Positions 19,417 through 40,727 of a stretch of 63,608 bases of DNA are shown here, piece after piece. Both the position numbers and the translations under genes were made by a program. Position 1 is the stretch's first letter; each line of letters starts with the position of its first letter. This DNA comes from Candidatus Nomurabacteria bacterium. GTDB taxonomy: Bacteria; Patescibacteriota; Minisyncoccia; Phycocordibacterales; UBA9973. The notes under the pieces are model-generated. The model was not told the origin of the DNA. It ran no database searches and saw nothing but the letters and a program-made list of their open reading frames with translations. Where the stretch lies: NCBI GenBank assembly GCA_026395995.1, contig JAPLXQ010000004.1, positions 1 to 63,608 of the forward strand, given 5' to 3'.

Positions 19417-19520
19417 TTTTGTATTATAAGTATAACATTAAGCAGGATTAAAGATGAAATATTCTTCTAAGTACATATTTAAAATGCTATTATATATCTA
19501 GTGAAAAATAAATATTGCAT

Positions 19521-19549
19521 TTGACAGATATTTGTAATTTTGCTATATT
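19521..19549 (+). promoter_or_regulatory. Sigma70-like promoter of nadE-nrtR
   Basis: TTGACA (19521-19526), 17 nt, TATATT (19544-19549), about 30 nt upstream of the nadE ATG. Confidence 0.6.
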
Positions 19550-19551
19550 AA

Positions 19552-19570
19552 TAGTGTATTAATAACACTA
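19552..19570. promoter_or_regulatory. Palindromic operator TAGTGT-N7-ACACTA (putative NrtR site) over the nadE transcription start
   Basis: tagtgt attaata acacta, immediately after the -10. The same 6-7-6 palindrome recurs at the pncB and pncA promoters. Confidence 0.6.
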
Positions 19571-19579
19571 AAAAAATAC

Positions 19580-21514
19580 ATGAAAAACACAAAAACATAT
19601 AACTTTATACGTGTCGCGACAATAACTCCGACTTTAAACATCGGTAATGTCTTAGAAAATACAAAGATTTGTATCAAGGCAATTTTAGAAGCAAATAAAA
19701 AGAATAGTAGCTTGATAGTATTACCTGAATTAGCTCTCACTGGCTATACAGCTGGGGATTTATTTCACAATGATACTCTATATAAAAATGTAGAAGAAGC
19801 TTTAGCTTTAATAGGAGAAAAAACAAAAAATATTGAAGCTACAATATTAATCGGCTCCCCTATCCGCACAGTTCATGGAATGATAAATGCCGGAATTGTT
19901 TACAATCGGGGAAAAATAATCGGGGTAATACCAAAACTACATTTACCAAATTATAAAGAATTTTATGAAAAACGTTGGTTTATTTCTGGATATGAATTAC
20001 CAGAGAAAACAATAAAAATAAATGGTGTAAATATACCATGTAATAGTAATATTCTTTTTACTGACAAAAACAATCCTAATATCGTAATGGGAGCAGAAAT
20101 ATGTGAAGATGTTTGGATGCCTATAGCTCCATCTGCTGTTCTAGCATTACAAGGTGCAAATATTTTAGTGAATTTATCAGCTTCAAATGAATTAGTAGGT
20201 AAAGCCGCATACAGAAAAGAATTGGTTTCAATGCAGTCAGCAAAAACTGTCAGTGCTTATATATATGTATCATGTGGAGTTCATGAATCAACTACAGATG
20301 TAGTTTTCAGTGGACACTCACTTATTGCTGAAAACGGTACTATGATAGCTGAATCCCCTAGATTTTCTCGTGAGACAGTTATAACTTATGGTGATATAGA
20401 TGTAGACCACCTTGTAACTGACCGTACTCGTACAAATTCTTTTACTGATAATCAAAAAATAATAGATAAAAAAGAAGTACAAATAGTAGAGACAAATATA
20501 CCTACAATAGAAAAGATAGAATATCGAAATATTAGTCCTACTCCATTTCTACCAGGTGATATAGAAAAGAGAAAACAAGTGACTGATGACATTTTTAATA
20601 TTCAAGTTGCTGGTCTAGCAAAAAGACTAGAAAGTTCCAAAATTAAAAAAGTTGTTTTAGGTTTGTCTGGAGGACTCGATTCAACTTTGACATTTTTAGT
20701 AGCATTAAAAGTTTTTGATTTACTAAAATTACCTAGAAAAAATATTTATACTATCACTATGCCTGGCTTTGGTACTACTAGTGGAACAAAAAACAATGCT
20801 CATGAACTTGCAAAAGTTTCTGGTGTCAATATTGAAGAAATATCTATAATACCGGCTATAGATCAGCATTTCAAAGACTTGGGACATGACGATAAAGTAG
20901 AAAATATTGTTTTTGAAAATAGCCAAGCTAGATATCGTACTATGATTTTATTCGATAAGGCAAACCAAGTCGGTGGACTCGTACTAGGAACTGGGGATTT
21001 ATCTGAAAGTGCTTTGGGTTGGTGTACATTTAACGGTGACCATATTTCAAATTACAATGTTAACTGTAGTATTCCAAAAACATTAGTAAAATATGTAGTA
21101 GAACACGTAGCAGATAATAGTGAAGAAAAAATGAAAACAGTATTGGAAGATATATTGAATACTCCTATCTCTCCTGAACTAACACGTGTAAAAAATGATA
21201 AAGTAACACAGAAGACAGAAGACCTAGTAGGACCATATATTTTACATGACTTCTTTATTTACCATTTTATTCGTTGGGGATCTTCACCTGAAAAGATTTT
21301 TGCAATTGCAAAAATTGCATTCAAGGGTCAATATAATGAAGTCACAATTAAAAAATGGTTAAAAGAATTTATAAATAGATTTTTCAAAAACCAATGGAAG
21401 CGTTCTGTAATGGCTGATGGACCAAAAGTCGGATCTGTCTCATTATCACCTCGTGGAGATTGGCGTATGCCTTCTGATGCTGATGTCACAGAATGGTTGA
21501 AAGAATTAGAATAG
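19580..21514 (+). CDS. nadE: Glutamine-dependent NAD+ synthetase (long form, nitrilase-like plus synthetase domains)
   Basis: 644 aa with a CN-hydrolase N-domain (EICED) and an ATP-PPase motif LGLSGGLDS. Confidence 0.9.
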   Translation: MKNTKTYNFIRVATITPTLNIGNVLENTKICIKAILEANKKNSSLIVLPELALTGYTAGDLFHNDTLYKNVEEALALIGEKTKNIEATILIGSPIRTVHGMINAGIVYNRGKIIGVIPKLHLPNYKEFYEKRWFISGYELPEKTIKINGVNIPCNSNILFTDKNNPNIVMGAEICEDVWMPIAPSAVLALQGANILVNLSASNELVGKAAYRKELVSMQSAKTVSAYIYVSCGVHESTTDVVFSGHSLIAENGTMIAESPRFSRETVITYGDIDVDHLVTDRTRTNSFTDNQKIIDKKEVQIVETNIPTIEKIEYRNISPTPFLPGDIEKRKQVTDDIFNIQVAGLAKRLESSKIKKVVLGLSGGLDSTLTFLVALKVFDLLKLPRKNIYTITMPGFGTTSGTKNNAHELAKVSGVNIEEISIIPAIDQHFKDLGHDDKVENIVFENSQARYRTMILFDKANQVGGLVLGTGDLSESALGWCTFNGDHISNYNVNCSIPKTLVKYVVEHVADNSEEKMKTVLEDILNTPISPELTRVKNDKVTQKTEDLVGPYILHDFFIYHFIRWGSSPEKIFAIAKIAFKGQYNEVTIKKWLKEFINRFFKNQWKRSVMADGPKVGSVSLSPRGDWRMPSDADVTEWLKELE

Positions 21515-21552
21515 ATTAGACAAGCTCACTATAAATAATATAAAATAAACAC

Positions 21553-22212
21553 ATGAATAAAAAATTTTTAGAACCAGATGTAACAGTAGACGTAGTACTC
21601 TTCATGGTAGAAGATGGTGTTTTGAAAGTACTCTTAGTTGAACGCGAACATGAACCGTATAAAGGTATTCACGCATTACCAGGTGGATATTTATTTGAAA
21701 AAGAAACTGCTCGCACTGGTGCAGAGCGTGTACTAGAAGAAAAAGCCGGAGTTAAAAATATTTATATAGAGCAACTATATACTTTTGATACACCAGGACG
21801 TGACCCACGTGGACCAAACTTTTCAATATCATATATCGCACTCGTACACTCACCTATCATGATAAATAAATCACACGATGTTCAAAAACCAGAATGGTTT
21901 CCTGTAAAAAAATTACCAAAACTCGGTTTCGATCACAAAGAAATTATTGAATATGCAGTAGAAAGACTTCGTGGAAAGCTCGAATACACAACTATCGGTT
22001 TTAATGCATTACCAAAACTCTTTACCCTTTCTCAACTTCAACAAGTCTATGAAGTTATCTTAAACAAAAAACTTGATAAAAGAAATTTTAGAAAGAAAAT
22101 GGATCAATTTGGTTTTATTAAAGAAACAAATAAATCCCTAACTGGTATGCGCCAACGTCCAGCCAAGCTTTACTCCCTAGCCGTCAAACCCGGAGAAATC
22201 AAGAATTTTTAA
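21553..22212 (+). CDS. nrtR: NrtR-family Nudix-related transcriptional regulator
   Basis: Partly degenerate Nudix box GGYLFEKETARTGAERVLEEKAGV, plus a C-terminal winged-helix signature FTLSQLQQVYEVILNKKLDKRNFRKKM. The gene sits within an NAD gene cluster. Confidence 0.75.
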   Translation: MNKKFLEPDVTVDVVLFMVEDGVLKVLLVEREHEPYKGIHALPGGYLFEKETARTGAERVLEEKAGVKNIYIEQLYTFDTPGRDPRGPNFSISYIALVHSPIMINKSHDVQKPEWFPVKKLPKLGFDHKEIIEYAVERLRGKLEYTTIGFNALPKLFTLSQLQQVYEVILNKKLDKRNFRKKMDQFGFIKETNKSLTGMRQRPAKLYSLAVKPGEIKNF

Positions 22213-22222
22213 GAAATAAAAA

Positions 22223-22248
22223 AGCCCCAATATTGCTGGGGCTTTTTA
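22223..22248 (+). terminator. Intrinsic terminator after nrtR
   Basis: agcccca-atattgc-tggggct followed by TTTT. Confidence 0.75.
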
Positions 22249-22530
22249 AGTCTAGATCGTCATTTTTCTGGGTCGCTCAACCTAGTATCTATAGGACCGT
22301 AGCCTACTGCGATATAGGGGTATTTTCCGTAAGTAACCGAGCCATAAAAGGCAGCCGCCATTTAAGTTAATCAATACTGACTTAAAAGTATTGAATCTTA
22401 CATACTAATACTCTAGCAGTATATACCCTTATAATATATTTGTCAAGTACTTCACCATATTAACCTTGACTTTTATAGATAAACATGCTAAAGTGCTATA
22501 AAAGCTATATATTATCATAAGTATATGATA

Positions 22531-22549
22531 TAGTGTATATGGTACAATA
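22531..22549. promoter_or_regulatory. Operator TAGTGT-N7-ACAATA (one mismatch) overlapping the extended -10 (TGGTACAAT) of pncB
   Basis: tagtgt atatggt acaata. The -10 TACAAT lies at 22543-22548 and the ATG at 22578. Confidence 0.5.
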
Positions 22550-22577
22550 TGTTAATTAACAATTAAAAACAATAGCG

Positions 22578-23873
22578 ATGAAAAATAACTTTTCAACATT
22601 AGACTTCAAAGCACTCGATCATTCAATGCTTGAAGGGCCAATAGTTACATCTCTCTTAGAGGATGATTTCTATAAATTTTCGATGGGCGGACTATTACAT
22701 GACTTCCCTGAATATGGAGAGCAAGAAATGGAATGGCGTTTCAAATGCCGTACAAAAATTCCTTTAGGTGATTACATTACCGAAAAAGATTTTATGGAAC
22801 AGTATGAACATGTAACAAAATTGCATGCAACTAAAACAGAATTGCATTACTTACGCGGAACAAATGAGTACGATACGCGAATGTTCTCTGAAGGATATTT
22901 GAAACATCTTACTAATCTACAGATTCCAAATGCAAATTTCCACGTTACTAATGAGAAAGATCTCGATATTGCAGTAGCAAAATCATGGAATCATTCAATG
23001 CATGCTGAAATGCCAATACTTAAAATTGTTAATACTCTTTTCTACCGGACACAATTAAAAAAAATGTCTCGTATGGAACGTGAAGCAATTTATGCAGAAG
23101 GTGTGAGACGCTTAGCGGAAACCATAATGAAAATTAAGGCCCATTCAAATGTACGATTCTCTGATTTTGGAAATCGTAGAGCATTCGGACCAGTATGGCA
23201 CGATTATGTTGTAGCTCGTTGTGCAGAAGAACTCGGAGAGCAATTTCTTGGAACTTCCAATGTAGCACTTGCAGCAAAATATGATTTGATGCCAATTGGT
23301 ACTTGTGCTCACGAACTTTCAATGGGAATCACAGCTACTCATTTTGATGGAACTAAAAAATCTATTGAAGATTCATTACTACGATTGGCTAATATGTGGT
23401 GGAACAAATATGGACATGGATTGTCTATTAATCTTCCTGATACCTATGGCACAACATTTACGTTAGGCGTTATGACCGAACAAATGCATAGAGATTGGAA
23501 GGGTAACAGAATTGATTCAAAAGCTCCTACAGTTGCAATCAAAGAACTAATGGCGAAATATGATTCACTCGGTATTGATCCTGCTACAAAAATGGCTATT
23601 CCAAGTGATGGAAACACAGTAGATTCAATGATTGAAGTTGCTGATGCATTCCATAATAAAATGAAAGTTTCATTTGGTTTTGGTACCTGGCTTACTAACA
23701 ATATGGGATTATTACAACTTTCCATAGTTGCAAAACCTTGGAAAATTGGAAAGAAGTATTGTGTGAAAGTTTCAGACAACCGGGCTAAATCAATAGGAGA
23801 AGAAAATGAAAAAGGGTCTTACATTAAAGCTCTTGATAGTAATGAAACTTATTTTTTAGAACCTGTAGTTTAA
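22578..23873 (+). CDS. pncB: Nicotinate phosphoribosyltransferase
   Basis: 431 aa with DDFYKFSMG, FSDFGNRRAF and GTSNVALAAKYDLMPIGTCAHE, as in PncB. Confidence 0.88.
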   Translation: MKNNFSTLDFKALDHSMLEGPIVTSLLEDDFYKFSMGGLLHDFPEYGEQEMEWRFKCRTKIPLGDYITEKDFMEQYEHVTKLHATKTELHYLRGTNEYDTRMFSEGYLKHLTNLQIPNANFHVTNEKDLDIAVAKSWNHSMHAEMPILKIVNTLFYRTQLKKMSRMEREAIYAEGVRRLAETIMKIKAHSNVRFSDFGNRRAFGPVWHDYVVARCAEELGEQFLGTSNVALAAKYDLMPIGTCAHELSMGITATHFDGTKKSIEDSLLRLANMWWNKYGHGLSINLPDTYGTTFTLGVMTEQMHRDWKGNRIDSKAPTVAIKELMAKYDSLGIDPATKMAIPSDGNTVDSMIEVADAFHNKMKVSFGFGTWLTNNMGLLQLSIVAKPWKIGKKYCVKVSDNRAKSIGEENEKGSYIKALDSNETYFLEPVV

Positions 23874-23892
23874 ATAAGAACAACAAAAAGAA

Positions 23893-23921
23893 ACCCGTTA
23901 CAAATATTGTAACGGGTTTTT
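23893..23921. terminator. Bidirectional terminator between convergent pncB and the kinase gene
   Basis: Perfect 10-bp stem acccgttaca / tgtaacgggt flanked by A- and T-runs. Confidence 0.8.
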
Positions 23922-23932
23922 ATTATTTTTAC

Positions 23933-25681
23933 TTACGGATTTAGACTAATAGCCCAAACCTTACTACCTTCTATAGCGACTACACGATTTTCAAAATGTG
24001 CTAATGTAAAGTTCGCATTGATCTTTGCATCTGTCACATCGTTACGTCCACCACTAGTCGGCACTGTGATGAGCAAGCTTCCATCATTTTCGATTTCAGC
24101 ATTTACTCCTTTTGGAAGTGATGTCATGTTTAATTCAGGACTAGCAATATCAGAAATATTTATCTGATAACTTGTATAATCTTTAGAAAAAACAATTTCA
24201 TATTTTTTATACTGCCCTGTTCTATTCTCAAGCACTGAGAGAGTTGCACATCTAGCACCTGCAATCCCCTCTATTACCTTACTCTTATCGAGTTCCGGAA
24301 CATGTACATACTGACACGCACCTTCATTAAAGGGAGTGATTAAATATGTCGTACCCATAGTGTCTTGTACTCCGATACCGTCAAACCATTTAGTAGAATT
24401 CACCAATACTTGCCAAGTATTTTTCGTAACAATGATAGGTTTTGCAAATTGCTTTGCAGTCACTTCAGTGAGGCCTTGATCAGTAATTATGAACAATCGA
24501 TTGTAATATCGTACTATTTTATTCGAATGAAGTATTGTTTCGATTATTTCACTTCTACCATCTTTACTTACCAAAATAAATACTAATTTTCCATCGGAAT
24601 TAATTTCTCCTACCAGGAATCCATATTCAGTATGTATAACTTCACTATGATTCGAAAAACTTTTATCAAACATTCTTCCATTTGCGAGGTTTATCATTTT
24701 TCCAGACCGAAGTCGTACGACACCGCATGTATATACTTGTACAGGTATATCATTCACTCCATCAAATAGTACACTCATATTTAGTTTCCCTGAAGATGTA
24801 ATTATGACAGTTCTATGTATTATTGCAGCTTTTGCAGCAGTAATACTCGTATCATATGGTGATGGTGGTAATGAACGATTTCCTTTTTGAAATACTGATT
24901 CATACCACGCGAACAATGATGCCGGAATGGCATTAAAATCACGCACAGCGCTGTTCAATCTCACTCCTTGTGTAAATACTGATTTATTATCTTTCATCCT
25001 TTCTAATATGTCGTTTGGCTTGTAACCATCCAACACCCCTTTATATGGATGAATACCAGTAAAAACTTGAAATGAAACTACAGCAAACGAAAACCAGTCA
25101 GAACTTTCATTGAATCCATTTGTGTGTAAATCATGAATCGAAGGCATAATAACAGAAGGTTTAAAATGGTCAATAGACCATGAATCCACATCTATCACTC
25201 GTGGCTCGGCGAGTTTCTTTTTTCTTGAAACCAACCAATTCAATTCATTTGCATCAACCAAAATTGCTTTATTATTATGAGCAACATTTATTACAGTACG
25301 CATCCCATCTACAAGAGACAAAACATCTTTATCTGTAAAATTTTCACGGTTGCGATATGCAGTCGTAAAAACTCTAGCCAATGCTTCACCTTGTTCGTAA
25401 TTCATGTAATATCCGATCGGATTTTGATTTTTAAATACCAAACCTTTCGGTGCGACAATAAATGGATGATTAATTTTTTTTAATAAACCAAGCTTTATCG
25501 CCATACCATCCATACTCATTTTTTTTGAATCTGAATATAATTTTATAATCAAATCAGACGATGGTTTATATACAGAACCTTCACCGCCTGTGGCGATATG
25601 GTCTGTCGGACGAAGTGTCAAAACTCCACGTCCTTCGAGCTCAAATGTTTCAGCCCTTGTTAATACTCCTGTGGTGTTCAT
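23933..25681 (-). CDS. Protein kinase-like protein (TerY-P triad kinase) with a large C-terminal beta-rich domain
   Basis: 582 aa with a Gly-loop GGEGSVYKP, a catalytic-loop-like VDANELNWLV and a DFG-like VIDVDSW. Its start overlaps the PP2C stop (TAATG). Confidence 0.7.
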   Translation of the reverse strand: MNTTGVLTRAETFELEGRGVLTLRPTDHIATGGEGSVYKPSSDLIIKLYSDSKKMSMDGMAIKLGLLKKINHPFIVAPKGLVFKNQNPIGYYMNYEQGEALARVFTTAYRNRENFTDKDVLSLVDGMRTVINVAHNNKAILVDANELNWLVSRKKKLAEPRVIDVDSWSIDHFKPSVIMPSIHDLHTNGFNESSDWFSFAVVSFQVFTGIHPYKGVLDGYKPNDILERMKDNKSVFTQGVRLNSAVRDFNAIPASLFAWYESVFQKGNRSLPPSPYDTSITAAKAAIIHRTVIITSSGKLNMSVLFDGVNDIPVQVYTCGVVRLRSGKMINLANGRMFDKSFSNHSEVIHTEYGFLVGEINSDGKLVFILVSKDGRSEIIETILHSNKIVRYYNRLFIITDQGLTEVTAKQFAKPIIVTKNTWQVLVNSTKWFDGIGVQDTMGTTYLITPFNEGACQYVHVPELDKSKVIEGIAGARCATLSVLENRTGQYKKYEIVFSKDYTSYQINISDIASPELNMTSLPKGVNAEIENDGSLLITVPTSGGRNDVTDAKINANFTLAHFENRVVAIEGSKVWAISLNP

Positions 25682-26553
25682 TATATTTCAGTATTAATAG
25701 TGAAATGAATTGCTGCAAGTGCGACATCATCATCAGGATATGTCTCATGCTTGCTATAGTCGAGTAATGCTCGACTGAGTCTACGTTTAACAAATTCTCC
25801 GGTCCAATTTTTGAATGCAGTTAATCGTACTGCAATTTCCAATGGTTTTAGAAAATTTCCATCTTTCTTAAAGCGACCTATACCATCTGAAGTAATACAT
25901 ATCACTTCTAGATTTTCGATCTCTTCAACAGTTAATGAAATAATATATCCTGTGACTGATTGTTGTATGTTGAAAAATATCTCATTCTCAGCTACAGCCC
26001 CATTGATTACATTAATTGTTTCTACAGATAAACTTTTTTCTCCATTTTCTGTATTTATATGGTTGGCAATGAATTGTTCTTTGCGGTTATCTGCCGGATA
26101 ATACGGAGTATTATTTTGCCACTCAGTATTTATCAAACGTATATCGCCATTTTTGAATTTCAATATCGCATGACCATCTCCTAATATGTGAATAAATCCA
26201 CCAGTAGGAGTAACAATAGAATATACACAAGTCGCCAATAAATCTTGATTCGTCAAACCCATTTGCAATACAGTATTTTGTGCGTGCAAAATAAGTGTCT
26301 GATGAATTAAATTTGGAAGAATTGTGATATCTGAAGTTTGAGCTAAACATTCTTTGATCGCAGTAATTGTAGCGCAAGTAATTATGCGGGCACCTATGTC
26401 GGTATGCCTCCCTGATGAACAACCATCTGATACAACCATAAAAAGTGCATCATTTAGTTCTCCACAAAGTGCATGATCCTGACAAGGTGAATTTTGTGTA
26501 ATGTGTTTTTTACCTATCACAAAATGTGAATCGGTATTTCCTTTCTTTTCCAT
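25681..26553 (-). CDS. PP2C-family Ser/Thr phosphatase (PP2C_2 type)
   Basis: 290 aa with CQDHA...FMVVSDGCSSGRHTDIGA and ...ITSDGI metal-binding Asp motifs. Confidence 0.7.
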   Translation of the reverse strand: MEKKGNTDSHFVIGKKHITQNSPCQDHALCGELNDALFMVVSDGCSSGRHTDIGARIITCATITAIKECLAQTSDITILPNLIHQTLILHAQNTVLQMGLTNQDLLATCVYSIVTPTGGFIHILGDGHAILKFKNGDIRLINTEWQNNTPYYPADNRKEQFIANHINTENGEKSLSVETINVINGAVAENEIFFNIQQSVTGYIISLTVEEIENLEVICITSDGIGRFKKDGNFLKPLEIAVRLTAFKNWTGEFVKRRLSRALLDYSKHETYPDDDVALAAIHFTINTEI

Positions 26554-26582
26554 TTTTTAAGTTTTTTAAAGTTAAATTAAAA

Positions 26583-26614
26583 ACAGGCAGCAGATTTTCT
26601 GCTGCCTGTGTACA
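26583..26614 (-). terminator. Strong hairpin plus T-run between the vWA and PP2C genes (internal terminator/attenuator)
   Basis: On the minus strand: acaggcagca-gaaaatc-tgctgcctgt followed by TTTTT. It lies in the 72-nt vWA-PP2C gap. Confidence 0.6.
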
Positions 26615-26625
26615 CTCACAATCTT

Positions 26626-27372
26626 TTAGATAGTAGGTGCGATTTGTTGGGAAGGTCCTCCCGTTCCAAGTGCATGTGACTGGCTACTTACTGATTGACT
26701 AACAAAGTCAGCCAATTTAGCAAGTCTACCTGGTGTCACATCACCTGCATCGATATATTTATTAATACCGACTGATGTCTGCAATGATTCAAGTTGATTC
26801 TTGTATTGAGCAGCATTAATTCCTACCAACAAAACAATATCTGACTCAATGAATTCACCTTTTATTCCGCGTTCAATTTCTTTTTTTACCTGACCTGCTG
26901 TCAATTTAGAATCGTTATCATCACCATCGGTAATAATTACATTAATTCCATTTGACATAAAGTCATTATCAGCTAATTGTTTCGCGTAAGTATTAGTTGA
27001 ACCAATTGCAGAATACATTGCATCCAACAAGTTTGTGTATCCTCCGGGTGAAAATTGTTCATATGCATTAGTATCAATATCCGCAAGCGGCATGAAACCA
27101 TGCAATTCTTTAATTCCACCGGGAAGGTGTGTCGCGAATAAAAATACTCGCACCAGTAAGTTTTCAGAGCGTGGTGATTTTTTACAAGACTCAATCGTTG
27201 TGATCAAGCATTTACGTAAATCACCTACAAAATCTCTAATCGAACCAGTTACATCAATAGCAATATTTACCAGTGTGTACTCGGAAGCACCGAGGTGCTC
27301 CGTACGTACTCCTGAAAATTTTAAATTGCTTCCTGGGATACTATTAGTATCCATACCTAACATTTTTGGCAT
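26626..27372 (-). CDS. von Willebrand factor A domain protein (TerY-like)
   Basis: 248 aa with MIDAS-like IDVTGSI and ...VIITDGDDND. It is preceded by AGGAGG-N9-ATG. Confidence 0.8.
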   Translation of the reverse strand: MPKMLGMDTNSIPGSNLKFSGVRTEHLGASEYTLVNIAIDVTGSIRDFVGDLRKCLITTIESCKKSPRSENLLVRVFLFATHLPGGIKELHGFMPLADIDTNAYEQFSPGGYTNLLDAMYSAIGSTNTYAKQLADNDFMSNGINVIITDGDDNDSKLTAGQVKKEIERGIKGEFIESDIVLLVGINAAQYKNQLESLQTSVGINKYIDAGDVTPGRLAKLADFVSQSVSSQSHALGTGGPSQQIAPTI

Positions 27373-27410
27373 AATTTGTTTCCTCCTATTTTTAAATTTG
27401 TTTATACTAA

Positions 27411-28259
27411 TTAATTAAAAAATGTTGTAGTCGTAGTAACTTCTACTCCGCGTTTCTGAATTTCAGTCAACCATGCTTGCGCAATAGCTGGAAAATCCGG
27501 ACTCGTTGGCTGGTTAGTACCAGGCTCAAAAGATTGCGGTACTGGACTAGTCGCATCGGTCAAGATTTTAATCTTTGCGATATGATCAGCACCAATGTTG
27601 TTCGCGATTTGATCAATGGTTTCTTTTACACAATGACTTAACGCTTCTCCGGCAATAAGGATAATGTCGGCTTTTTGTAATGTTTCAATCAGAATAGTAT
27701 TTAACTGAGTAGAAGGATCTATTCCATCTTCAACTTCAGCTAATAATCCGCCATAGTGTTCAGTAAAAGGGTTTGTTCCTTTCATCACAAAATCAACCAT
27801 TGCATACTCTTTGCGTTGCCACTCAAGTAATGCATTTGAAAGATTTTCCTGAATACCATGACCCCATGTACCAACCAAACAATGTTCAGGCCAGATAAAT
27901 AACATATACTTACCTGTTTTTTCAAGTGCCTCCGCGTATTCCAGTGAACGTTTTAATTGTCCAGGATCACGTGGTGTGTAAATTCCTGCTTTGATATCAG
28001 ATGCTGTAATCAAAGTAAATGGTGCAACCATTTTACCTTGTGCATCTTTCCACCAAGACGGGTGTGCGATGTCAATGATTTGATGAGTATCCAGTGTTAC
28101 GTGAATATCATCCAAACGATGACCATGTTTTTTAATAAAAGTAGCTAAACGATTCATATCTTCGTTTGCTCCAGTTACTGGTAATGCTGACCCTGGAAGA
28201 TCCATAAAGTCTTTTTGTGGGTCGATTACGACCAGATGAATTTTTACATTTTTGTTCAT
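27411..28259 (-). CDS. pncA: Isochorismatase-family hydrolase, probable nicotinamidase
   Basis: VVIDPQKDF (Asp), VMKGT (Lys) and LSHCV (Cys) form the catalytic triad pattern. I prefer the start at MNKNVKIHLVV (28259). The ORF-track start (28376) would put the promoter and operators inside the CDS. Confidence 0.72.
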   Translation of the reverse strand: MNKNVKIHLVVIDPQKDFMDLPGSALPVTGANEDMNRLATFIKKHGHRLDDIHVTLDTHQIIDIAHPSWWKDAQGKMVAPFTLITASDIKAGIYTPRDPGQLKRSLEYAEALEKTGKYMLFIWPEHCLVGTWGHGIQENLSNALLEWQRKEYAMVDFVMKGTNPFTEHYGGLLAEVEDGIDPSTQLNTILIETLQKADIILIAGEALSHCVKETIDQIANNIGADHIAKIKILTDATSPVPQSFEPGTNQPTSPDFPAIAQAWLTEIQKRGVEVTTTTTFFN

Positions 28260-28310
28260 GATTTCTGTTTTTTTATTGGTGAAACTTAATTTAATTTTTA
28301 ACGAACTTAA

Positions 28311-28329
28311 TAGTGTTTTTTCTACACTA
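28311..28329. promoter_or_regulatory. Operator TAGTGT-N7-ACACTA (site A, downstream of the pncA transcription start)
   Basis: tagtgt tttttct acacta, a perfect 6-7-6 palindrome. Confidence 0.6.
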
Positions 28330-28337
28330 TCTTTACT

Positions 28338-28372
28338 TAGTGTTAATATAACACTATTAAAATACAATGCAA
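28338..28372 (-). promoter_or_regulatory. pncA promoter (TTGCAT, 16 nt, TATATT) with operator site B (28338-28356) centred on the -10
   Basis: tagtgt taatata acacta on the plus strand. The minus-strand -10 TATATT lies within the N7 spacer, and the -35 is at 28367-28372. Confidence 0.55.
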
Positions 28373-28458
28373 GCACTTTTCAAATAAAGCTGTGGATAAC
28401 TTTTTTATAACAAAAAAGCCTTATTTTATAAGACTTTTAAAGCTTGTTATTTTAACAA

Positions 28459-28626
28459 TTAATCAGATCCTAGTTTAAAACTAATGCATATTCCCAATAT
28501 TGCGCCTAGAGAACTAAAAATAATGGAGGAAAAAGAAAAGGCGTCTGCTCCCCACAAAGTGGGTATATATCCCCCAAGTGTGGAGCCTATTATAGTACCT
28601 ATAAAGATTAAAGATTTAGAATTCAC
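28459..28626 (-). CDS. Possible 55-aa small hydrophobic protein (GTG start)
   Basis: Hand translation gives VNSKSLIFIGTIIGSTLGGYIPTLWGADAFSFSSIIFSSLGAILGICISFKLGSD, which reads as two Gly-zipper-like helices. It is below the ORF-track length cutoff and the start is uncertain. Confidence 0.3.
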   Translation of the reverse strand: MNSKSLIFIGTIIGSTLGGYIPTLWGADAFSFSSIIFSSLGAILGICISFKLGSD

Positions 28627-28734
28627 CTTTAAATAATAACATAATCTATATAAATAAACCTTAATTGACTTTTTACCATGTGAATGCTAATATAAATTTT
28701 AGATAAATTGAACATAAAATATTAAAGACAGAAC

Positions 28735-29028
28735 ATGGAAAACATTTTAGAAGTAGATGGATTAGCTTCATTGAAAGGGAAAACGCTTAATTTTACAAAA
28801 TTAAGCAGCAGTATTAATCATGCAGAAAATGCAGAAATTTTATACAAAAAAGACAAAGTAACAATTTCTAAATCAACGATACATCAAAATATGTATCATA
28901 TCACGAAAGAAAAAGGCGCAGTAAGAAATATTCCTAAAAATTTGGATGTAAAAATAGGCGGAATAGCCCTAGATAAACTTTCAAAAGAGACCTTTCATGG
29001 CGTGCTTCATCTTGATTTAAAATCTTAA
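28735..29028 (+). CDS. Hypothetical protein
   Basis: 97-aa ORF followed by a clean intrinsic terminator. No recognisable motif. Confidence 0.4.
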   Translation: MENILEVDGLASLKGKTLNFTKLSSSINHAENAEILYKKDKVTISKSTIHQNMYHITKEKGAVRNIPKNLDVKIGGIALDKLSKETFHGVLHLDLKS

Positions 29029-29055
29029 AATTATTTAAGATGTAACCCTATATGA

Positions 29056-29079
29056 CCTCGGATTTATCCGAGGTTTTTT
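29056..29079 (+). terminator. Intrinsic terminator
   Basis: cctcgga-ttta-tccgagg followed by TTTTTT. It overlaps the stop of the convergent malic enzyme gene. Confidence 0.75.
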
Positions 29080-30217
29080 ATTTTATAGCTTTAGCTACAG
29101 TAATTGCTACATTTTTATCAAAAATACTTGGAATTATTTTATCTACAGTTGGATTTTTTACTAATTTTGCAAGAGCAATAGAAGCTTTCACTAGCATTGC
29201 ATCTGTAATGTTTATCACCTCATGATCTAAGGCTCCACGAAAAATTCCAGGAAAACCAAGTGCGTTATTTAATTGATTTGGAAAATCAGACCTACCTGTA
29301 GCCACAATAAATGCTCCAGCGGACTTTGCTATATCTGGCATTATTTCCGGCACTGGATTGGCTAAAGCAAAAATAATAGGCTTCTTATTCATCGTCTTTA
29401 TCATTTCACTAGTCAATACTCCCCCTTTCGAAACACCAATAAAAACATCAAAATCTTTTATAGCCTCTAAGAGCTCTCCTTTTATTTTTTGCTTGTTGGT
29501 TTTTTTAGATAAAATTATTTTTTCTTCATTTAAATTTTCTCTTCCTTCATAAATAGCTCCATGGCTATCAAGAATAATCATCTCTTTAAAACCATATTCA
29601 AGTAACATTTTTGCAATAGCCACCCCCGCTGCACCTGCACCATTTATCAAAATTTTTACATTTTCTTTTTTATTTCCACGAACTTTTAAAGCATTTATAA
29701 GACCAGACAATACTACCATAGCAGTACCATGCTGATCATCATGCATTATTGGAATATTTAATTCTTTCTTTAATCTTTCTTCAATCTCAAAACATCGAGG
29801 TGCCGAAATGTCTTCTAAATTTATTGCACCAAAAGATGGAGCGATAGCCTTTATTGCTTGAATAATTTCTTCTGTATTTTGGGTCGACAGAACAATCGGG
29901 AAAGCATCTACTCCAGCAAAACTTTTAAAAATAGCTGCCTTACCTTCCATCACAGGCAAAGCACCTTCAGGGCCAATATTGCCGAGCCCGAGTACCGCTG
30001 AACCGTCTGATATTACAGCCACCATATTACCCCTAGATGTATAATTATTTGTCTCTTTTTTATTATTTGCTAAATAAGTAGAGACAGCTCCGACACCAGG
30101 AGTATAAACTAAAGATAAATCTTCTTTTGTTTTTAGTTTAAATTTAGAAATTACCTCTATTTTTCCACGAAGTTTTTTATGAAGTTTTAAAGACTCTTTT
30201 GAAATATTGTTTTTCAT
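29078..30217 (-). CDS. NAD(P)-dependent malic enzyme (short form)
   Basis: 379 aa with VYTPGVG, AVISDGSAVLGLGNIG, a GAGAAGVA Rossmann motif and ALANPVPEI. Confidence 0.88.
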   Translation of the reverse strand: MKNNISKESLKLHKKLRGKIEVISKFKLKTKEDLSLVYTPGVGAVSTYLANNKKETNNYTSRGNMVAVISDGSAVLGLGNIGPEGALPVMEGKAAIFKSFAGVDAFPIVLSTQNTEEIIQAIKAIAPSFGAINLEDISAPRCFEIEERLKKELNIPIMHDDQHGTAMVVLSGLINALKVRGNKKENVKILINGAGAAGVAIAKMLLEYGFKEMIILDSHGAIYEGRENLNEEKIILSKKTNKQKIKGELLEAIKDFDVFIGVSKGGVLTSEMIKTMNKKPIIFALANPVPEIMPDIAKSAGAFIVATGRSDFPNQLNNALGFPGIFRGALDHEVINITDAMLVKASIALAKLVKNPTVDKIIPSIFDKNVAITVAKAIK

Positions 30218-39071: not shown

Positions 39072-40727
39072 TTAAAAGCTTTTCTGGGCAACTAGGACCA
39101 TATTTGTCGGAGGATATTGTATTTGTTTCAAAATTCCATTTTGATTTTCAAATATTTCAACTTTTCCGACAAACCTATTCTGAACAATCCAATCATTGGT
39201 ATAGACACGTGAAGCAGTTTCTATTTTATTAGGATTTTCTAAGATATCAAAACCTGCCTGGTGTAATAAATCTTTCCAATCACTAAAACTAAAGAAGGCA
39301 AACTCTTCATTCAGCTCACTTTTCCAATTGTCTGCATAATCTTTCTTTGTAATAAATTCTACTGCATCTTTCATTCTTAAAACAAAATATTTTTGTCCAT
39401 CTATATTTTCTTCTTTAAAATTTATTTTTGTTTCTTTTCCTCTTCTTCCAGAAGTTCTCATATCTTCCAAATAATCCTTAGCAAATCTAAAGAATTTAGC
39501 TTCAGTAGAAAGAGAATTTATATGTTTCATTAAATCATCCTGACTGTCTGTTTGGAAAAATATATTTTCATTTGTTCCATCTGTACTATTTAATTTTAGA
39601 TAAACTTCTTTATCTTTGTTCTCTGGACCAACGACATCGCGTATTACAAGTCTTCCACCTTTTCTTGTCTGTTTATATTTTAAATTAATATAATTTTTTA
39701 AACTTTCTAGTCCATCACCATATGACCAGACTTCATGAGTAGTAGAATTACATATAGTAGTGTCTATAGACCCATCTTCAAAAATAGAATCCATAAGATT
39801 GCGCTGATGAAAATGCACAAATGCACCACCAAATTCTCCAGCTCTTTGTCTTTCAGTACAACGAGCTAAAAATTCACTCGCAATATCAATACCAATAATA
39901 TCAGAATCGGGAAAATCGTATGCAAGCTTTACCATTAGGGCACCATCGGCACAACCTTCGTCAACAATTTTACCGGAAACTACAGCCTTTTTAATATCTA
40001 AATATTTCATATCTAAAACTTCTGACCTTGCCATTGCAGAAGCATAAGTAGAATAATTTCTAGTCTCAGTAAGAGAACCACTGTCTGTCAAAAGGGGTTC
40101 TTTCCAAATCTTTTTTATACTATCTGGAACAGAAGGAAAATCTTTCCAAAAACTAAAAGTAGAGGTTGAAACTAAATTTTCTAAAATAGTATCTTTTTGC
40201 CAATCCACCTTTTCTTCTGCAAGAGTATGTAATGCATCGATAGGAGCCTGTGCAATAAATTTTTTATTTTGATAATCATATTCTGCTGGTAGCACTGTAA
40301 AACCAAGAGATATATACATATCTATGACATTTGGGGTCGAAGCTAAGACTATTGTATTTTTGGGGGTCAATTCCAATCCATCAGACTCATGAATTTCTTT
40401 TAAAATAATTTCTATATATTTATCTGTCGGATCAAAATGAGGTATGCCGACTATTTTTTGTTTTATTCCTAAATCTTTTCTAAAATGTTCAAAAAATCTA
40501 TCTAGTGAAATAGCACGGATATAAAATGGTAATGGATTAAATCTGGAATTTGATTTATTTGAAGATGTCACCGCAAAAACTACTGTATCAATACGTTCAT
40601 CTGGATTAAAATTATTAGGACCAATAAAATCCAATTTTGAAAATGGTAAATTTAAAATTTGCCACAAATACTTTTCTTGAAAAGAAGTATTTAATATATG
40701 TCGCCCATGAAAAAGTAAATATGCCAT
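39072..40727 (-). CDS. Fusion protein: nucleotidyltransferase-like N-domain with a degenerate HxGH motif, plus a class I SAM-dependent methyltransferase
   Basis: 551 aa. The methyltransferase motif I is GKIVDEGCADGALMVKLA. The N-terminal LLFHGRHILNTSF...VVFAVTSSNKSNSRFNPLPFYIRAI resembles the NMNAT/cytidylyltransferase layout (GRFxPxHxGH ... S..NPF..ER) but lacks the canonical His pair. Confidence 0.55.
   Translation of the reverse strand: MAYLLFHGRHILNTSFQEKYLWQILNLPFSKLDFIGPNNFNPDERIDTVVFAVTSSNKSNSRFNPLPFYIRAISLDRFFEHFRKDLGIKQKIVGIPHFDPTDKYIEIILKEIHESDGLELTPKNTIVLASTPNVIDMYISLGFTVLPAEYDYQNKKFIAQAPIDALHTLAEEKVDWQKDTILENLVSTSTFSFWKDFPSVPDSIKKIWKEPLLTDSGSLTETRNYSTYASAMARSEVLDMKYLDIKKAVVSGKIVDEGCADGALMVKLAYDFPDSDIIGIDIASEFLARCTERQRAGEFGGAFVHFHQRNLMDSIFEDGSIDTTICNSTTHEVWSYGDGLESLKNYINLKYKQTRKGGRLVIRDVVGPENKDKEVYLKLNSTDGTNENIFFQTDSQDDLMKHINSLSTEAKFFRFAKDYLEDMRTSGRRGKETKINFKEENIDGQKYFVLRMKDAVEFITKKDYADNWKSELNEEFAFFSFSDWKDLLHQAGFDILENPNKIETASRVYTNDWIVQNRFVGKVEIFENQNGILKQIQYPPTNMVLVAQKSF

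What the first reader, a model, noticed from the sequence alone, without database searches (positions are those of the whole stretch)
22578..28376. TerY-P-type vWA/PP2C/kinase triad inserted between pncB and pncA, apparently co-transcribed with the nicotinamidase
Seen in the sequence:
- The gene order is nadE-nrtR (+), pncB (+), then on the minus strand pncA-like, vWA, PP2C and kinase. The kinase and pncB share one bidirectional terminator.
- Only 38 nt separate the pncA stop (27411) from the vWA ATG (27372). That gap has no hairpin and no -35/-10 match.
- The PP2C and kinase genes overlap as TAATG.
- Sampled lines in the triad and in pncA are about 45-48% GC, against about 30% in the backbone.

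Established knowledge:
- A vWA (TerY-like) protein with a PP2C phosphatase and a Ser/Thr kinase is the 'TerY-P triad' of Anantharaman, Iyer and Aravind (2012).
- That triad was among the anti-phage systems validated by Gao et al. (2020).
- NrtR regulators respond to ADP-ribose.
- Many defence systems act by destroying NAD+.

Inference:
- A physical and probably transcriptional fusion of this triad with the Preiss-Handler salvage genes, under an ADPR-sensing repressor, is not something I know to be described.
- One possibility is an NAD/ADPR-triggered defence or signalling module.
- The other is phospho-control of salvage enzymes by the triad.
Basis: partly seen in the sequence, partly recalled or inferred. 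Interest (0 to 1): 0.8.

Follow-up and report, generated by a model that had tools for sequence, protein, structure and literature searches.

The report
Nicotinamidase operon with vWA–phosphatase–kinase module
A nicotinamide-recycling enzyme gene is locked into a conserved four-gene cassette with a metal-binding adaptor protein, a phosphatase and a kinase, apparently under an ADP-ribose-sensing repressor; the same cassette recurs in well over a hundred bacterial species and in many giant phages, and I found no description of this link between NAD+ salvage and protein phosphorylation.

Summary
The genes are there and mostly as described. On the minus strand lie a divergent but catalytically intact nicotinamidase (PncA*), a vWA/MIDAS protein, a PP2C phosphatase and a Ser/Thr kinase. 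They sit beside nadE-nrtR and pncB.

Three details are wrong or were missed:
- The cassette is 36% GC against 33% for the window, not 45-48%.
- pncA* most likely starts at ATG 28259. The upstream "extension" holds the likely promoter region and two operator-like palindromes.
- A strong terminator-like hairpin separates vWA from PP2C.

It is not an insertion. pncA*-vWA-PP2C-kinase is a conserved cassette:
- 79 of 80 species seeded with vWA have pncA* next to it.
- 69 of 80 viral contigs seeded with PncA* carry the full triad.
- Two 0.5-0.6 Mb phage genomes carry all four genes.
- In phage loci the cassette is often mixed with pncB, nadE and nadD.

NrtR-type palindromes (TAGTGT-N7-ACACTA) precede nadE, pncB and pncA* in the window. 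They are about 19-fold enriched upstream of pncA* in related bacteria.

The triad is distantly related to E. coli YegL/PphC/YegI. It fails the PADLOC TerY-P models, and its kinase ends in a beta-propeller rather than a zinc ribbon or OB fold.

Best reading: an NrtR-regulon (ADP-ribose-responsive by family analogy) nicotinamide-salvage operon whose nicotinamidase is coupled to a vWA/kinase/phosphatase switch. A defence role is not supported. This is a new variant of known kinds.

The parts
19552..19570 (.). NrtR-type operator palindrome TAGTGTATTAATAACACTA, immediately downstream of the nadE promoter-like site TTGACA-17-TATATT (19521-19549)
   Evidence: Perfect match to TAGTGT-N7-ACACTA, with the GT-N7-AC core described for NrtR sites (PMC2330246).
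19580..21514 (+). nadE, glutamine-dependent NAD synthetase
   Evidence: NAD_synthase 1e-28 and CN_hydrolase 3e-21.
21553..22212 (+). nrtR, Nudix-related transcriptional regulator. Its Nudix box is partly degenerate (RVLEEK) by my reading of the sequence.
   Evidence: NrtR_WHD 4e-25, NUDIX 9e-14. NF050029 gives 8e-47 but scores below its cut-off.
22531..22549 (.). NrtR-type operator (1 mismatch) between the pncB promoter-like site (22466-22494) and the pncB start
22578..23873 (+). pncB, nicotinate phosphoribosyltransferase
   Evidence: NAPRTase 3e-33, NAPRTase_N 9e-14, PRK05321 8e-91.
23889..23921 (.). Bidirectional intrinsic-terminator-like hairpin shared by pncB and the kinase gene
   Evidence: reported on both strands (13-15 pairs); sequence.
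23933..25681 (-). Ser/Thr kinase (residues 1-277), disordered linker (278-295) and all-beta C-terminal domain (296-582) read as a beta-propeller
   Evidence: Pkinase 1e-5, below the gathering score. PDB kinases 3e-5. YegI 2e-8. AlphaFold pLDDT 86.3. Top Foldseek hits are LRRK2/LRRK1, which are kinase + WD40. Invariant G32-G33-E34, K47, D143, N145, D164/D166 across the 28 aligned sequences (27 relatives plus the window).
25681..26553 (-). PP2C-type phosphatase, overlapping the kinase start by 1 nt (TAATG)
   Evidence: PF13672 1e-20. PphC 5e-6. The PP2C-kinase overlap is conserved, median gap -1 nt over 112 loci.
26583..26609 (-). Internal terminator-like hairpin (12 bp, 7 GC, loop 3, then TTTTTAATTTA) between vWA and PP2C; a probable attenuator
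   Evidence: Under strict criteria it is conserved in position in 39 of 72 related bacterial loci, against 5 of 69 for the pncA|vWA gap. MFE z < -2 in 87% of gaps.
26626..27372 (-). vWA/MIDAS protein with a highly conserved Ser-rich C-terminal helix and a disordered tail (…FVSQSVSSQS…GTGGPSQ…)
   Evidence: AlphaFold pLDDT 84.7. Foldseek probability 1.0 to integrin I-domain, ITIH1 and Rpn10 vWA. Invariant D40, G43, S44, T113, D149. phrog_7371 3e-9. YegL hhalign E 4.6e-4.
27411..28259 (-). PncA*, a divergent nicotinamidase with a ~55-aa insertion. The start is taken as ATG 28259.
   Evidence: PDB nicotinamidases 29iv 2e-7, 2h0r and 3pl1. Invariant D13, K160, C210 (catalytic triad) and D57, H59, H126 (metal site), with H66 nearly invariant. 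In other species it sits in classical nrtR<>pncA*-pncB-nadE operons.
28311..28356 (.). Two perfect NrtR-type operator palindromes (28338-28356 and 28311-28329) upstream of pncA*. A candidate -10 TATATT (28350-28345) lies inside the first box.
   Evidence: The same motif lies within 250 nt upstream of pncA* in 37 of the 76 bacterial loci scanned (1.9 per kb over all 111 upstream regions against 0.10 per kb background), often as two boxes. The promoter hexamers are my own reading and fall below the scan threshold.

Best explanation
This is one transcriptionally coordinated nicotinamide-to-NAD+ (Preiss-Handler) salvage locus of a Patescibacteria-like genome. Its nicotinamidase belongs to a conserved four-gene cassette, pncA*-vWA-PP2C-kinase.

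Proposed working:
1. NrtR sits on GT-N7-AC palindromes at the promoters of nadE-nrtR, pncB and pncA*-vWA.
2. When NAD+ is cleaved, ADP-ribose accumulates and releases NrtR, so all three units switch on.
3. PncA* converts nicotinamide to nicotinate. PncB and NadE, with an adenylyltransferase encoded elsewhere, rebuild NAD+.
4. vWA is made together with PncA*, at a similar level.
5. Most transcripts stop at the hairpin after vWA. Read-through yields small amounts of the translationally coupled PP2C and kinase.
6. The kinase (with a beta-propeller sensor or docking domain) and PP2C form a reversible phospho-switch. It probably acts on the Ser-rich C-terminus of vWA and/or on PncA*. This sets whether the MIDAS face of vWA engages PncA*, and so gates or matures nicotinamidase activity.

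Status of each step:
- Shown here: gene identities, conserved catalytic residues, cassette conservation in bacteria and phages, operator motifs and their conservation, and the conserved internal hairpin.
- Inferred from the families: the ADP-ribose response of NrtR, and the enzyme activities.
- Hypothesis: the targets of the phospho-switch, and any vWA-PncA* contact.

In phages the same cassette, joined by pncB, nadE and nadD, most likely rebuilds NAD+ during infection.
For: Identities.

Operators:
- Perfect TAGTGT-N7-ACACTA at nadE and twice at pncA*, and a 1-mismatch copy at pncB. That is 8 hits against 2.5 expected, and 0 of 100 shuffles reach 8.
- The motif fits the NrtR consensus core (PMC2330246).
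- It is 19-fold enriched upstream of pncA* across related loci.

Cassette conservation:
- With vWA as seed, pncA* is adjacent in 79 of 80 species. PP2C is present in 78 and the kinase in 76, in the same order and on the same strand. NrtR lies within 10 kb in 41, pncB in 33 and nadE in 18.
- With PncA* as seed, 45 of 75 further species have the triad. The rest are classical nrtR<>pncA*-pncB-nadE operons or solo pncA* genes.
- In viral contigs seeded with vWA, 33 of 35 have pncA*. In those seeded with PncA*, 69 of 80 have the full triad and 24 have pncB.
- Two GenBank phage genomes of 485 and 595 kb carry all four genes.

Operon anatomy:
- Median gaps are 46 nt (pncA|vWA), 74 nt (vWA|PP2C) and -1 nt (PP2C|kinase).
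- Terminator-like hairpins occur in the vWA|PP2C gap as often as after the kinase (39/72 against 37/70), but rarely in the pncA|vWA gap (5/69).
- No promoter-like site precedes PP2C in the window.

Other support:
- Neighbouring NAD genes (nadD-like, NAD kinase fusion, ADP-ribosylglycohydrolase) recur near the cassette.
- There is no GC anomaly, and the flanks are housekeeping genes.
- vWA and PncA* are strongly conserved, 55-79% and 41-60% identity to the window protein respectively.
Against: - No direct evidence shows that the triad acts on PncA* or vWA. There are no gene fusions among cassette members.
- No residue distinguishes triad-linked from triad-less PncA*. PncA* clearly functions without the triad in some genomes.
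- About half of the related bacterial loci lack a recognisable TAGTGT-N7-ACACTA box, and viral loci have none.
- The pncA* promoter hexamers are weak by consensus (-35 matches 3 of 6).
- The efficiency of the internal terminator is unknown. It could instead be a 3'-end stabiliser, or PP2C-kinase could have an unrecognised promoter.
- The Pfam isochorismatase and Pkinase scores are below the gathering thresholds.
Confidence: 0.5

Rival explanations
1. Counter-defence or conflict module of phage origin. The cassette is primarily a mobile NAD+-restoring device of large phages and prophages that overcomes NAD+-depleting immunity, with the triad sensing or timing the response. The CPR copy is a domesticated version wired into the NrtR regulon. 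This overlaps with the best explanation on chemistry but differs on primary role and origin.
For: - 198 IMG/VR contigs encode PncA*. Of the best 80 (GC 26-68%), 69 have the full triad, a tighter link than in cellular genomes (45 of 75).
- The cassette is interleaved with pncB, nadE and nadD in phage loci.
- Two 0.5-0.6 Mb phage genomes carry it.
- The copies L194-L197 have 62-65% GC and UViG identifiers of the kind I take to come from isolate genomes, which suggests proviruses.
- Jumbo phages are already known to encode Preiss-Handler genes (PMC11662467).
- Phage NAD+ reconstitution pathways NARP1-3 set the precedent (PMC13464706).
Against: - In the window the cassette sits among housekeeping genes with no GC anomaly and under host-type NrtR operators.
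- IMG/VR calls can include mis-classified cellular DNA.
- No experiment links the cassette to any defence system.
Confidence: 0.25
2. Maturation machinery. vWA uses its MIDAS metal site as a metal-dependent chaperone that loads or protects the Zn/Fe/Mn centre of PncA*, and the kinase/phosphatase pair only tunes that chaperone. The triad is then needed for making active enzyme rather than for signalling.
For: - The MIDAS residues are complete and invariant: D40-x-T-G43-S44, T113, D149.
- vWA is encoded stoichiometrically with PncA*, before the internal hairpin.
- The PncA* metal ligands are invariant.
- Nicotinamidase reactivation by metal-delivering proteins has been reported (PMC6941528).
- TerY-P triads were proposed to act as metal-sensing phospho-switches (as summarised in PMC11090510).
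- vWA proteins have been read as Mg2+-dependent peptide-binding chaperones in Nudix-TF-controlled ADPr systems (PMC9503650).
Against: - PncA* occurs without any adjacent vWA in 28 of 156 unique sequences, with no distinguishing residues.
- There is no fusion or direct interaction evidence.
Confidence: 0.15
3. A TerY-P-type anti-phage defence system that happens to use, or sit beside, NAD genes. In this reading it would be triggered by NAD+/ADP-ribose changes and act through an abortive mechanism.
For: - vWA-PP2C-kinase gene order, and distant homology to E. coli YegL/PphC/YegI.
- TerY-P-like modules were validated as defence systems (Gao et al. 2020, as cited in PMC11090510).
- NrtR control would couple expression to NAD+ cleavage.
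Against: - No PADLOC TerY-P model matches any of the three proteins, even at E<=10.
- The kinase lacks the zinc-ribbon or OB C-terminus and has a beta-propeller instead.
- There is no nuclease or other toxic effector in the cassette.
- The proteins are highly conserved rather than fast-evolving.
- The flanks are housekeeping genes, not a defence island.
- The cassette is abundant in phage genomes next to NAD+ synthesis genes.
Confidence: 0.07
4. Fortuitous neighbourhood: an unrelated signalling triad that merely landed next to pncA in this genome.
Against: - pncA* is adjacent in 79 of 80 vWA-seeded species, and 69 of 80 viral contigs carry the full triad. Order and strand are preserved across many phyla and across a GC range of 23-74%.
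- There is no GC anomaly.
Confidence: 0.02

Closest known systems
TerY-P triad (Anantharaman, Iyer & Aravind 2012; defence versions in Gao et al. 2020)
   Same: Three adjacent genes in the order vWA, PP2C phosphatase, Ser/Thr kinase. The vWA has a MIDAS site and a Ser-rich C-terminus.
   Different: - No match to the PADLOC TerY-P models.
- The kinase ends in a ~290-aa beta-propeller instead of a zinc ribbon or OB fold (definition in PMC11090510).
- It is obligatorily preceded by a nicotinamidase gene.
- A terminator-like hairpin splits vWA from PP2C-kinase.
- It sits in an NAD-salvage context, not a restriction or tellurite context.
- The 2012 paper itself could not be read.
E. coli K-12 yegL-pphC-(yegJ)-yegI
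   Same: Same gene order and pairwise distant homology: vWA profile against YegL E 4.6e-4 over 170 columns, including DVTGS/DVSGS and ITDG; PP2C against PphC 5e-6; kinase against YegI 2e-8.
   Different: No nicotinamidase and no NrtR beside the E. coli genes. Identity is only ~22-26%. The YegI C-terminal region does not align.
NrtR regulons of NAD salvage (pncA-pncB, nadE, nadD; Rodionov et al. 2008, PMC2330246)
   Same: A Nudix + winged-helix regulator, palindromic operators with a GT-N7-AC core overlapping or following promoters, and targets pncA, pncB and nadE.
   Different: The pncA transcription unit carries vWA and, by read-through, PP2C and the kinase. That paper mentions no phosphatase or vWA protein, and its four uses of 'kinase' refer to metabolic enzymes. 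It lists only unexplained 'nrtX-nrtY' genes.
Phage NAD+ reconstitution pathways NARP1-3 and 'NAD-jumbo phages'
   Same: Phage-borne genes that rebuild NAD+ from its breakdown products. Jumbo phages with complete Preiss-Handler sets, including pncA, are described (PMC11662467; PMC13464706).
   Different: NARP1 uses Adps/Namat, NARP2 uses Nampt/NMNAT and NARP3 uses PnuC/NadR-like proteins. None uses a nicotinamidase tied to a vWA/PP2C/kinase triad. The jumbo-phage paper has no occurrence of kinase, phosphatase or vWA.
ARG-centric ADP-ribose systems under Nudix/WYL transcription factors with vWA 'chaperones' (Iyer et al. 2022, PMC9503650)
   Same: An NrtR-like Nudix repressor controlling an operon that includes a vWA protein and phosphatases, proposed to respond to ADP-ribose.
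   Different: Those systems are centred on ADP-ribosylglycohydrolase and rhodanese-, calcineurin- or HD-type phosphatases, with no nicotinamidase, PP2C or kinase. Here ARG genes appear only as occasional neighbours, in 8 loci.

Membership tests
TerY-P triad | A vWA (TerY-like) protein with a MIDAS site | tested here: met
   The vWA fold has Foldseek probability 1.0. D40/T42/S44, T113 and D149 are conserved. There is distant profile similarity to YegL, E 4.6e-4. No Pfam vWA model matches.
TerY-P triad | Adjacent PP2C phosphatase and Ser/Thr kinase in one gene cluster with the vWA | tested here: met
   PF13672 1e-20. Kinase fold and motifs. Order is vWA-PP2C-kinase, with a PP2C/kinase overlap.
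TerY-P triad | Kinase fused at its C-terminus to a zinc ribbon (CoCoNuT-type) or an OB fold (Gao defence type) | tested here: not met
   Residues 296-582 are an all-beta domain read as a beta-propeller. The best structural matches are LRRK2/LRRK1, which are kinase + WD40. The feature definition comes from PMC11090510.
TerY-P triad | Recognition by the PADLOC TerY-P models | tested here: not met
   No TerY, PP2C or kinase TerY-P model hit at E<=10. The control is weak: E. coli YegL itself hits PADLOC TerY only at E 0.032.
TerY-P triad | Confers phage resistance | not testable with these tools
   Needs heterologous expression and phage challenge.
NrtR regulon | A regulator with an N-terminal Nudix-like domain and a C-terminal winged-helix DNA-binding domain | tested here: met
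   NUDIX 9e-14 plus NrtR_WHD 4e-25, above the gathering score.
NrtR regulon | A ~21-bp palindromic operator with a GT-N7-AC core at the promoters of NAD genes, conserved across related genomes | tested here: met
   Four sites lie at nadE, pncB and pncA* (positions). The motif is 19-fold enriched upstream of pncA*, present in 37 of the 76 bacterial loci scanned. The consensus is from PMC2330246.
NrtR regulon | DNA binding relieved by ADP-ribose | not testable with these tools
   Needs EMSA with purified NrtR with and without ADP-ribose.
Nicotinamidase (PncA, isochorismatase superfamily) | Catalytic Asp-Lys-Cys triad and an Asp/His metal site | tested here: met
   D13, K160, C210, D57, H59 and H126 are invariant, and H66 nearly so, in 28 members including phage copies. 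Local alignments to PDB nicotinamidases support this.
Nicotinamidase (PncA, isochorismatase superfamily) | Match to the curated family models | tested here: not met
   PF00857 gives E 0.042, below the gathering score. NF008623 gives 3e-4, 20.6 bits against a cut-off of 174. The protein is divergent because of a ~55-aa insertion.
Nicotinamidase (PncA, isochorismatase superfamily) | Genomic coupling to pncB and nadE | tested here: met
   nrtR<>pncA*-pncB-nadE operons occur in Cupriavidus, Ideonella, Pelomonas, Hydrogenophaga and Andreprevotia. pncB lies within 10 kb in 33 of 80 loci.
Phage NAD+ reconstitution pathways (NARP-like) | Encoded by phages and restores NAD+ depleted by host immunity | tested here: inconclusive
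   Homologous cassettes are abundant on viral contigs and in two large phage genomes.

The most novel reading that the evidence does not exclude
The PncA*-vWA-PP2C-kinase cassette is a previously unrecognised functional unit in which Ser/Thr phospho-signalling, through a MIDAS adaptor, directly gates the first step of nicotinamide salvage. In large phages, together with pncB, nadD and nadE, it would be a fourth, deamidating NAD+ reconstitution route used against NAD+-depleting immunity. In CPR bacteria it would be a core, ADP-ribose-induced NAD+ homeostasis device.
Probability: 0.3. Interest if true: 0.85.

Novelty: new variant of a known kind. Interest (0 to 1): 0.7.

Why it matters
- NAD+ is a central battleground between phages and bacteria. 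The known phage routes for rebuilding it (NARP1-3) are purely enzymatic. A salvage enzyme that almost never travels without a vWA adaptor, a phosphatase and a kinase would point to regulated, signal-dependent NAD+ rebuilding. The pattern holds across about 200 viral contigs and more than a hundred bacterial species.
- It would also give TerY-P-like triads, whose targets are unknown, a concrete candidate client (PncA*).
- For CPR/Patescibacteria, which have tiny genomes and few regulatory systems, a strongly conserved kinase/phosphatase module wired into the NrtR regulon suggests that NAD+ recycling is a tightly controlled bottleneck.
- The system is easy to test: four genes, a colourimetric enzyme assay, a defined operator and available NADase defence systems.

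Tried and rejected
- Pfam, NCBIfam and PADLOC scans of vWA and pncA gave nothing usable. A structure model and residue-level alignment were needed instead.
- PADLOC at E<=10, with E. coli YegL/PphC/YegI as controls, gave no TerY-P membership. The control itself is weak.
- The GC-anomaly or recent-insertion idea is rejected.
- A search for Rosetta-stone fusions among cassette proteins found none.
- A search for residues that separate triad-linked from triad-less PncA* found none. The insertion is present in both groups.
- An Rfam scan of 19000-29500 for riboswitches or known RNAs, including NAD+ riboswitches, found nothing above threshold. The 'rimP' hit is only the nrtR terminator.
- The fifth good palindrome, at 58587-58605, lies inside a large secreted-protein ORF and is treated as chance.
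- The candidate sRNA between nrtR and pncB folds no better than shuffles, z -1.5.
- The orphan N-terminal domain fused to PncA* in some CPR has no Pfam, NCBIfam or PDB relative.
- The original TerY-P paper (PMC4104200) is not held and could not be checked for a nicotinamidase link.
- Full-text searches for nicotinamidase together with vWA or PP2C returned no relevant paper.
- The nrtX-nrtY genes of Rodionov et al. could not be identified from the text.

Full report
WHAT IS IN THE WINDOW

The stretch 19.5-28.4 kb holds seven genes.
- Plus strand: nadE (NAD_synthase + CN_hydrolase), nrtR (NUDIX + NrtR_WHD) and pncB (NAPRTase).
- Minus strand, in transcription order: a nicotinamidase-like gene (here PncA*), a 248-aa protein, a PP2C phosphatase (PF13672, 1e-20) and a 582-aa kinase.

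- The pncA*|vWA gap is 38 nt. It has an AGGAGG ribosome-binding site and no promoter or hairpin hit.
- PP2C and the kinase overlap as TAATG.
- pncB and the kinase share a bidirectional hairpin at 23889-23921.

The GC claim is wrong. The cassette is 36.2% GC against 33.3% for the window, well within the spread of equal-sized windows.

The pncA ORF start at GTG 28376 is almost certainly an artefact. All homologues begin at the ATG at 28259. The extra 117 nt hold the likely promoter region and two operator-like palindromes.

PROTEIN IDENTITIES

The 248-aa protein gets no Pfam, NCBIfam or PADLOC hit.
- An AlphaFold model built on 24 homologues is confident (pLDDT 84.7, pTM 0.85).
- It matches integrin I-domains, ITIH1, Rpn10 and phage VWFA proteins with probability 1.0.
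- The MIDAS residues are invariant: D40-V-T42-G43-S44, T113, D149.
- A Ser-rich C-terminal helix and tail (KLAKLADFVSQSVSSQSQALGTGGPSQ) is almost unchanged across the family.

PncA* is too divergent for the isochorismatase model (E 0.042).
- It aligns locally to solved nicotinamidases (29iv 2e-7, 2h0r, 3pl1).
- The Asp-Lys-Cys triad (D13, K160, C210) and the metal ligands D57, H59 and H126 are invariant across 28 members, phage copies included. H66 is nearly invariant.
- It carries a ~55-aa insertion relative to M. tuberculosis PncA.

The kinase keeps the P-loop, the catalytic Lys and the D-x-N and D-x-D motifs. Its model (pLDDT 86.3) shows a kinase domain, a disordered linker and a 290-residue all-beta domain. 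The best full-length structural matches are LRRK2 and LRRK1, that is kinase plus WD40 propeller.

REGULATORY ANATOMY

The palindrome TAGTGT-N7-ACACTA occurs at four places next to NAD genes.
- One perfect copy lies at 19552-19570, right after the best promoter-like site in the region (TTGACA-17-TATATT) and 10 nt before nadE.
- Two perfect copies lie at 28338-28356 and 28311-28329, just upstream of pncA*.
- One copy with a single mismatch lies at 22531-22549, between a promoter-like site and pncB.

The window holds eight matches at two or fewer mismatches, against 2.5 expected. No shuffle reached eight.

The motif has the GT-N7-AC core and the promoter-proximal position that Rodionov et al. described for NrtR operators (PMC2330246).

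On the minus strand, a 12-bp, 7-GC hairpin followed by a T-run lies between the vWA stop and the PP2C start (26609-26583). No promoter-like site follows it.

THE CASSETTE IS CONSERVED, NOT INSERTED

Seeding with the vWA family:
- The family has 1,575 clusters, mostly Patescibacteria. The 120 best-scoring clusters are 55-79% identical to the window protein.
- A scan of one genome per species returned 115 species, of which 80 were analysed.
- pncA* lies immediately upstream of vWA in 79 of 80. The exception is cut by a contig end.
- PP2C follows in 78 and the kinase in 76, always in the same order and on the same strand.
- nrtR lies within 10 kb in 41, pncB in 33 and nadE in 18.
- Labels include many CPR classes, Bradyrhizobium, Accumulibacter, Thiodictyon, Thermosynechococcus, Planctomycetota and Bdellovibrionales.
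- In L001 the order is nadE-nrtR-pncA*-vWA-PP2C-kinase-pncB on one strand. The window is simply an inverted arrangement of the same neighbourhood.

Seeding the other way, with PncA*:
- Of 75 new loci, 45 carry the triad.
- The others are classical nrtR<>pncA*-pncB-nadE operons (Cupriavidus, Ideonella, Pelomonas, Hydrogenophaga, Andreprevotia) or solitary genes (Pseudomonas oryzihabitans, Rhodopseudomonas).

So this vWA subfamily essentially never occurs without PncA*, while PncA* can work alone. That fits the triad being an accessory of the enzyme. No residue separates the two PncA* groups.

CONSERVED OPERON ARCHITECTURE

- The NrtR-type box lies within 250 nt upstream of pncA* in 37 of the 76 bacterial loci scanned, often twice, and upstream of none of the viral copies. 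The density is 1.9 per kb over all 111 upstream regions scanned, against 0.10 per kb overall.
- Median gaps are 46 nt (pncA*|vWA), 74 nt (vWA|PP2C) and -1 nt (PP2C|kinase).
- The vWA|PP2C gap folds far better than shuffles in 87% of loci.
- Under strict criteria this gap holds a hairpin plus T-run in 39 of 72 loci. That is the same rate as downstream of the kinase (37 of 70). The rate in the pncA*|vWA gap is 5 of 69, and the background is 0.29 per kb.

The recurrent design is therefore: operator and promoter, pncA*-vWA, attenuating terminator, then a translationally coupled PP2C-kinase pair.

PHAGES CARRY IT TOO

- 35 IMG/VR contigs encode this vWA. 33 of them have pncA*, 32 PP2C and 33 the kinase.
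- 198 IMG/VR contigs encode PncA*. Of the best 80 (GC 26-68%), 74 have vWA and 69 the complete triad. Another 24 add pncB, 21 a nadE and 5 a nadD-like gene, sometimes interleaved inside the cassette.
- Two GenBank 'uncultured phage' genomes of 485 and 595 kb carry all four genes spread among small phage ORFs.
- In bacteria, recurrent neighbours include nadD-like genes (one fused to NAD kinase), ADP-ribosylglycohydrolase and a second canonical isochorismatase.

RELATION TO TerY-P

The architecture matches, and each protein is a distant homologue of the E. coli yegL-pphC-yegI products.

Two family tests fail.
- PADLOC's TerY-P models do not match, even at E<=10. E. coli YegL itself barely matches, so this test is weak.
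- The kinase lacks the zinc-ribbon or OB C-terminus that defines the described TerY-P kinases (PMC11090510).

I therefore treat it as TerY-P-like in design but not as a member of the validated defence family.

MECHANISM

- Shown: the gene identities, the cassette, the operators and the internal hairpin.
- Inferred from family knowledge: NrtR leaves DNA when ADP-ribose rises (PMC2330246). PncA*, PncB and NadE run the Preiss-Handler route.
- Hypothesis: vWA, made with PncA*, binds it through the MIDAS face or helps its metal centre. The low-abundance kinase/PP2C pair toggles this by phosphorylating the Ser-rich vWA C-terminus or PncA*.

The metal-chaperone variant has some outside support. PncA reactivation by metal-delivering proteins has been reported (PMC6941528), and vWA has been read as a Mg2+-dependent chaperone in Nudix-TF systems (PMC9503650).

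A defence role has no positive evidence. The cassette's abundance in phages beside NAD+ synthesis genes argues against it.

One published observation fits the wider picture. Jumbo phage PA5oct infection induces the host pncA-pncB1-nadE operon (PMC7318152). That paper does not mention NrtR, and I did not test whether NrtR mediates that induction.

NOVELTY

Already described:
- Phage Preiss-Handler genes (PMC11662467; PMC12647753).
- NARP1-3.
- NrtR regulons.

In the searchable library, no paper combines nicotinamidase with vWA or PP2C. The papers above do not mention a kinase, phosphatase or vWA partner.

LIMITS

- The 2012 TerY-P paper could not be read.
- Loci were retrieved through family-specific peptide patterns.
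- MAG and IMG/VR labels can be wrong.
- Nothing here is experimental.

Noticed in passing
window 22219-22446, minus strand: One of the two best promoter-like sites in the region (TTGACA-17-TATACT, 11 of 12) points away from pncB. It leads into a GC-rich ~190-nt stretch that ends at the bidirectional nrtR terminator. This is a candidate small RNA between nrtR and pncB. It has no Rfam match, and its fold z-score is only -1.5.
   Followed up: partly
window 39072-40727, minus strand: A 551-aa protein with a SAM-methyltransferase domain and an N-terminal part that faintly resembles archaeal NMN adenylyltransferase (TIGR01527, E 0.087). Homologues lie next to the pncA*-triad cassette in 12 other loci. 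It might supply the missing adenylyltransferase step.
   Followed up: partly
L002:8431-9966, L003:1144-2679, L010:1905-3473, L011:8340-9896, L020:8350-9918, L041:5412-7019: In at least six CPR species PncA* carries a conserved ~235-aa N-terminal domain, 50-82% identical between species. It has no Pfam, NCBIfam or PDB relative. This is an orphan domain fused to the nicotinamidase.
   Followed up: partly
L058 (Variovorax) and L160 (Desulfonema): Both loci have pncA*-vWA (with nrtR as well in L058) but no PP2C or kinase within the retrieved flank. L147 and L150 (Rhodoferax) show pncA* without vWA, while sister Rhodoferax MAGs keep the whole cassette (L150 is a short contig). The triad therefore seems to be gained and lost within genera.
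   Followed up: no
L180:6001-12472: A contig binned as 'Promethearchaeota' (27% GC) carries the cassette in the spread-out, small-ORF-interrupted form typical of the phage loci. It is probably a viral contig mis-binned into an archaeal MAG.
   Followed up: no
L054:16566-17591 and 7 further CPR loci: ADP-ribosylglycohydrolase genes (PF03747, 2e-52) recur a few kb from the cassette. This links the locus to ADP-ribose turnover as well as to nicotinamide.
   Followed up: partly
L088:13831-14397 and L088:7037-7594: One phage locus inserts a second, canonical isochorismatase-family gene between PP2C and the kinase, and a 2OG-Fe(II) oxygenase next to pncA*. L024 and L092 carry tandem pncA* copies.
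   Followed up: no
window ~28470-28640, minus strand: A short ORF, too small for the ORF list, encodes what looks like a Gly-rich small membrane peptide by my reading of the sequence. It has its own hairpin plus T-run just upstream of the pncA* operators, so pncA* appears to start a new transcription unit.
   Followed up: no
window 58587-58605: A one-mismatch copy of the NrtR-type palindrome lies inside the 5' part of a 746-aa secreted repeat-protein ORF (56437-58677, minus strand). It is most likely a chance match.
   Followed up: partly
L194-L197: High-GC (62-65%) IMG/VR entries carry the complete cassette. Their UViG identifiers are of the kind I take to come from isolate genomes, and they resemble the Bradyrhizobium loci L016, L030 and L037. 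The proteobacterial copies may therefore be prophage-borne.
   Followed up: no
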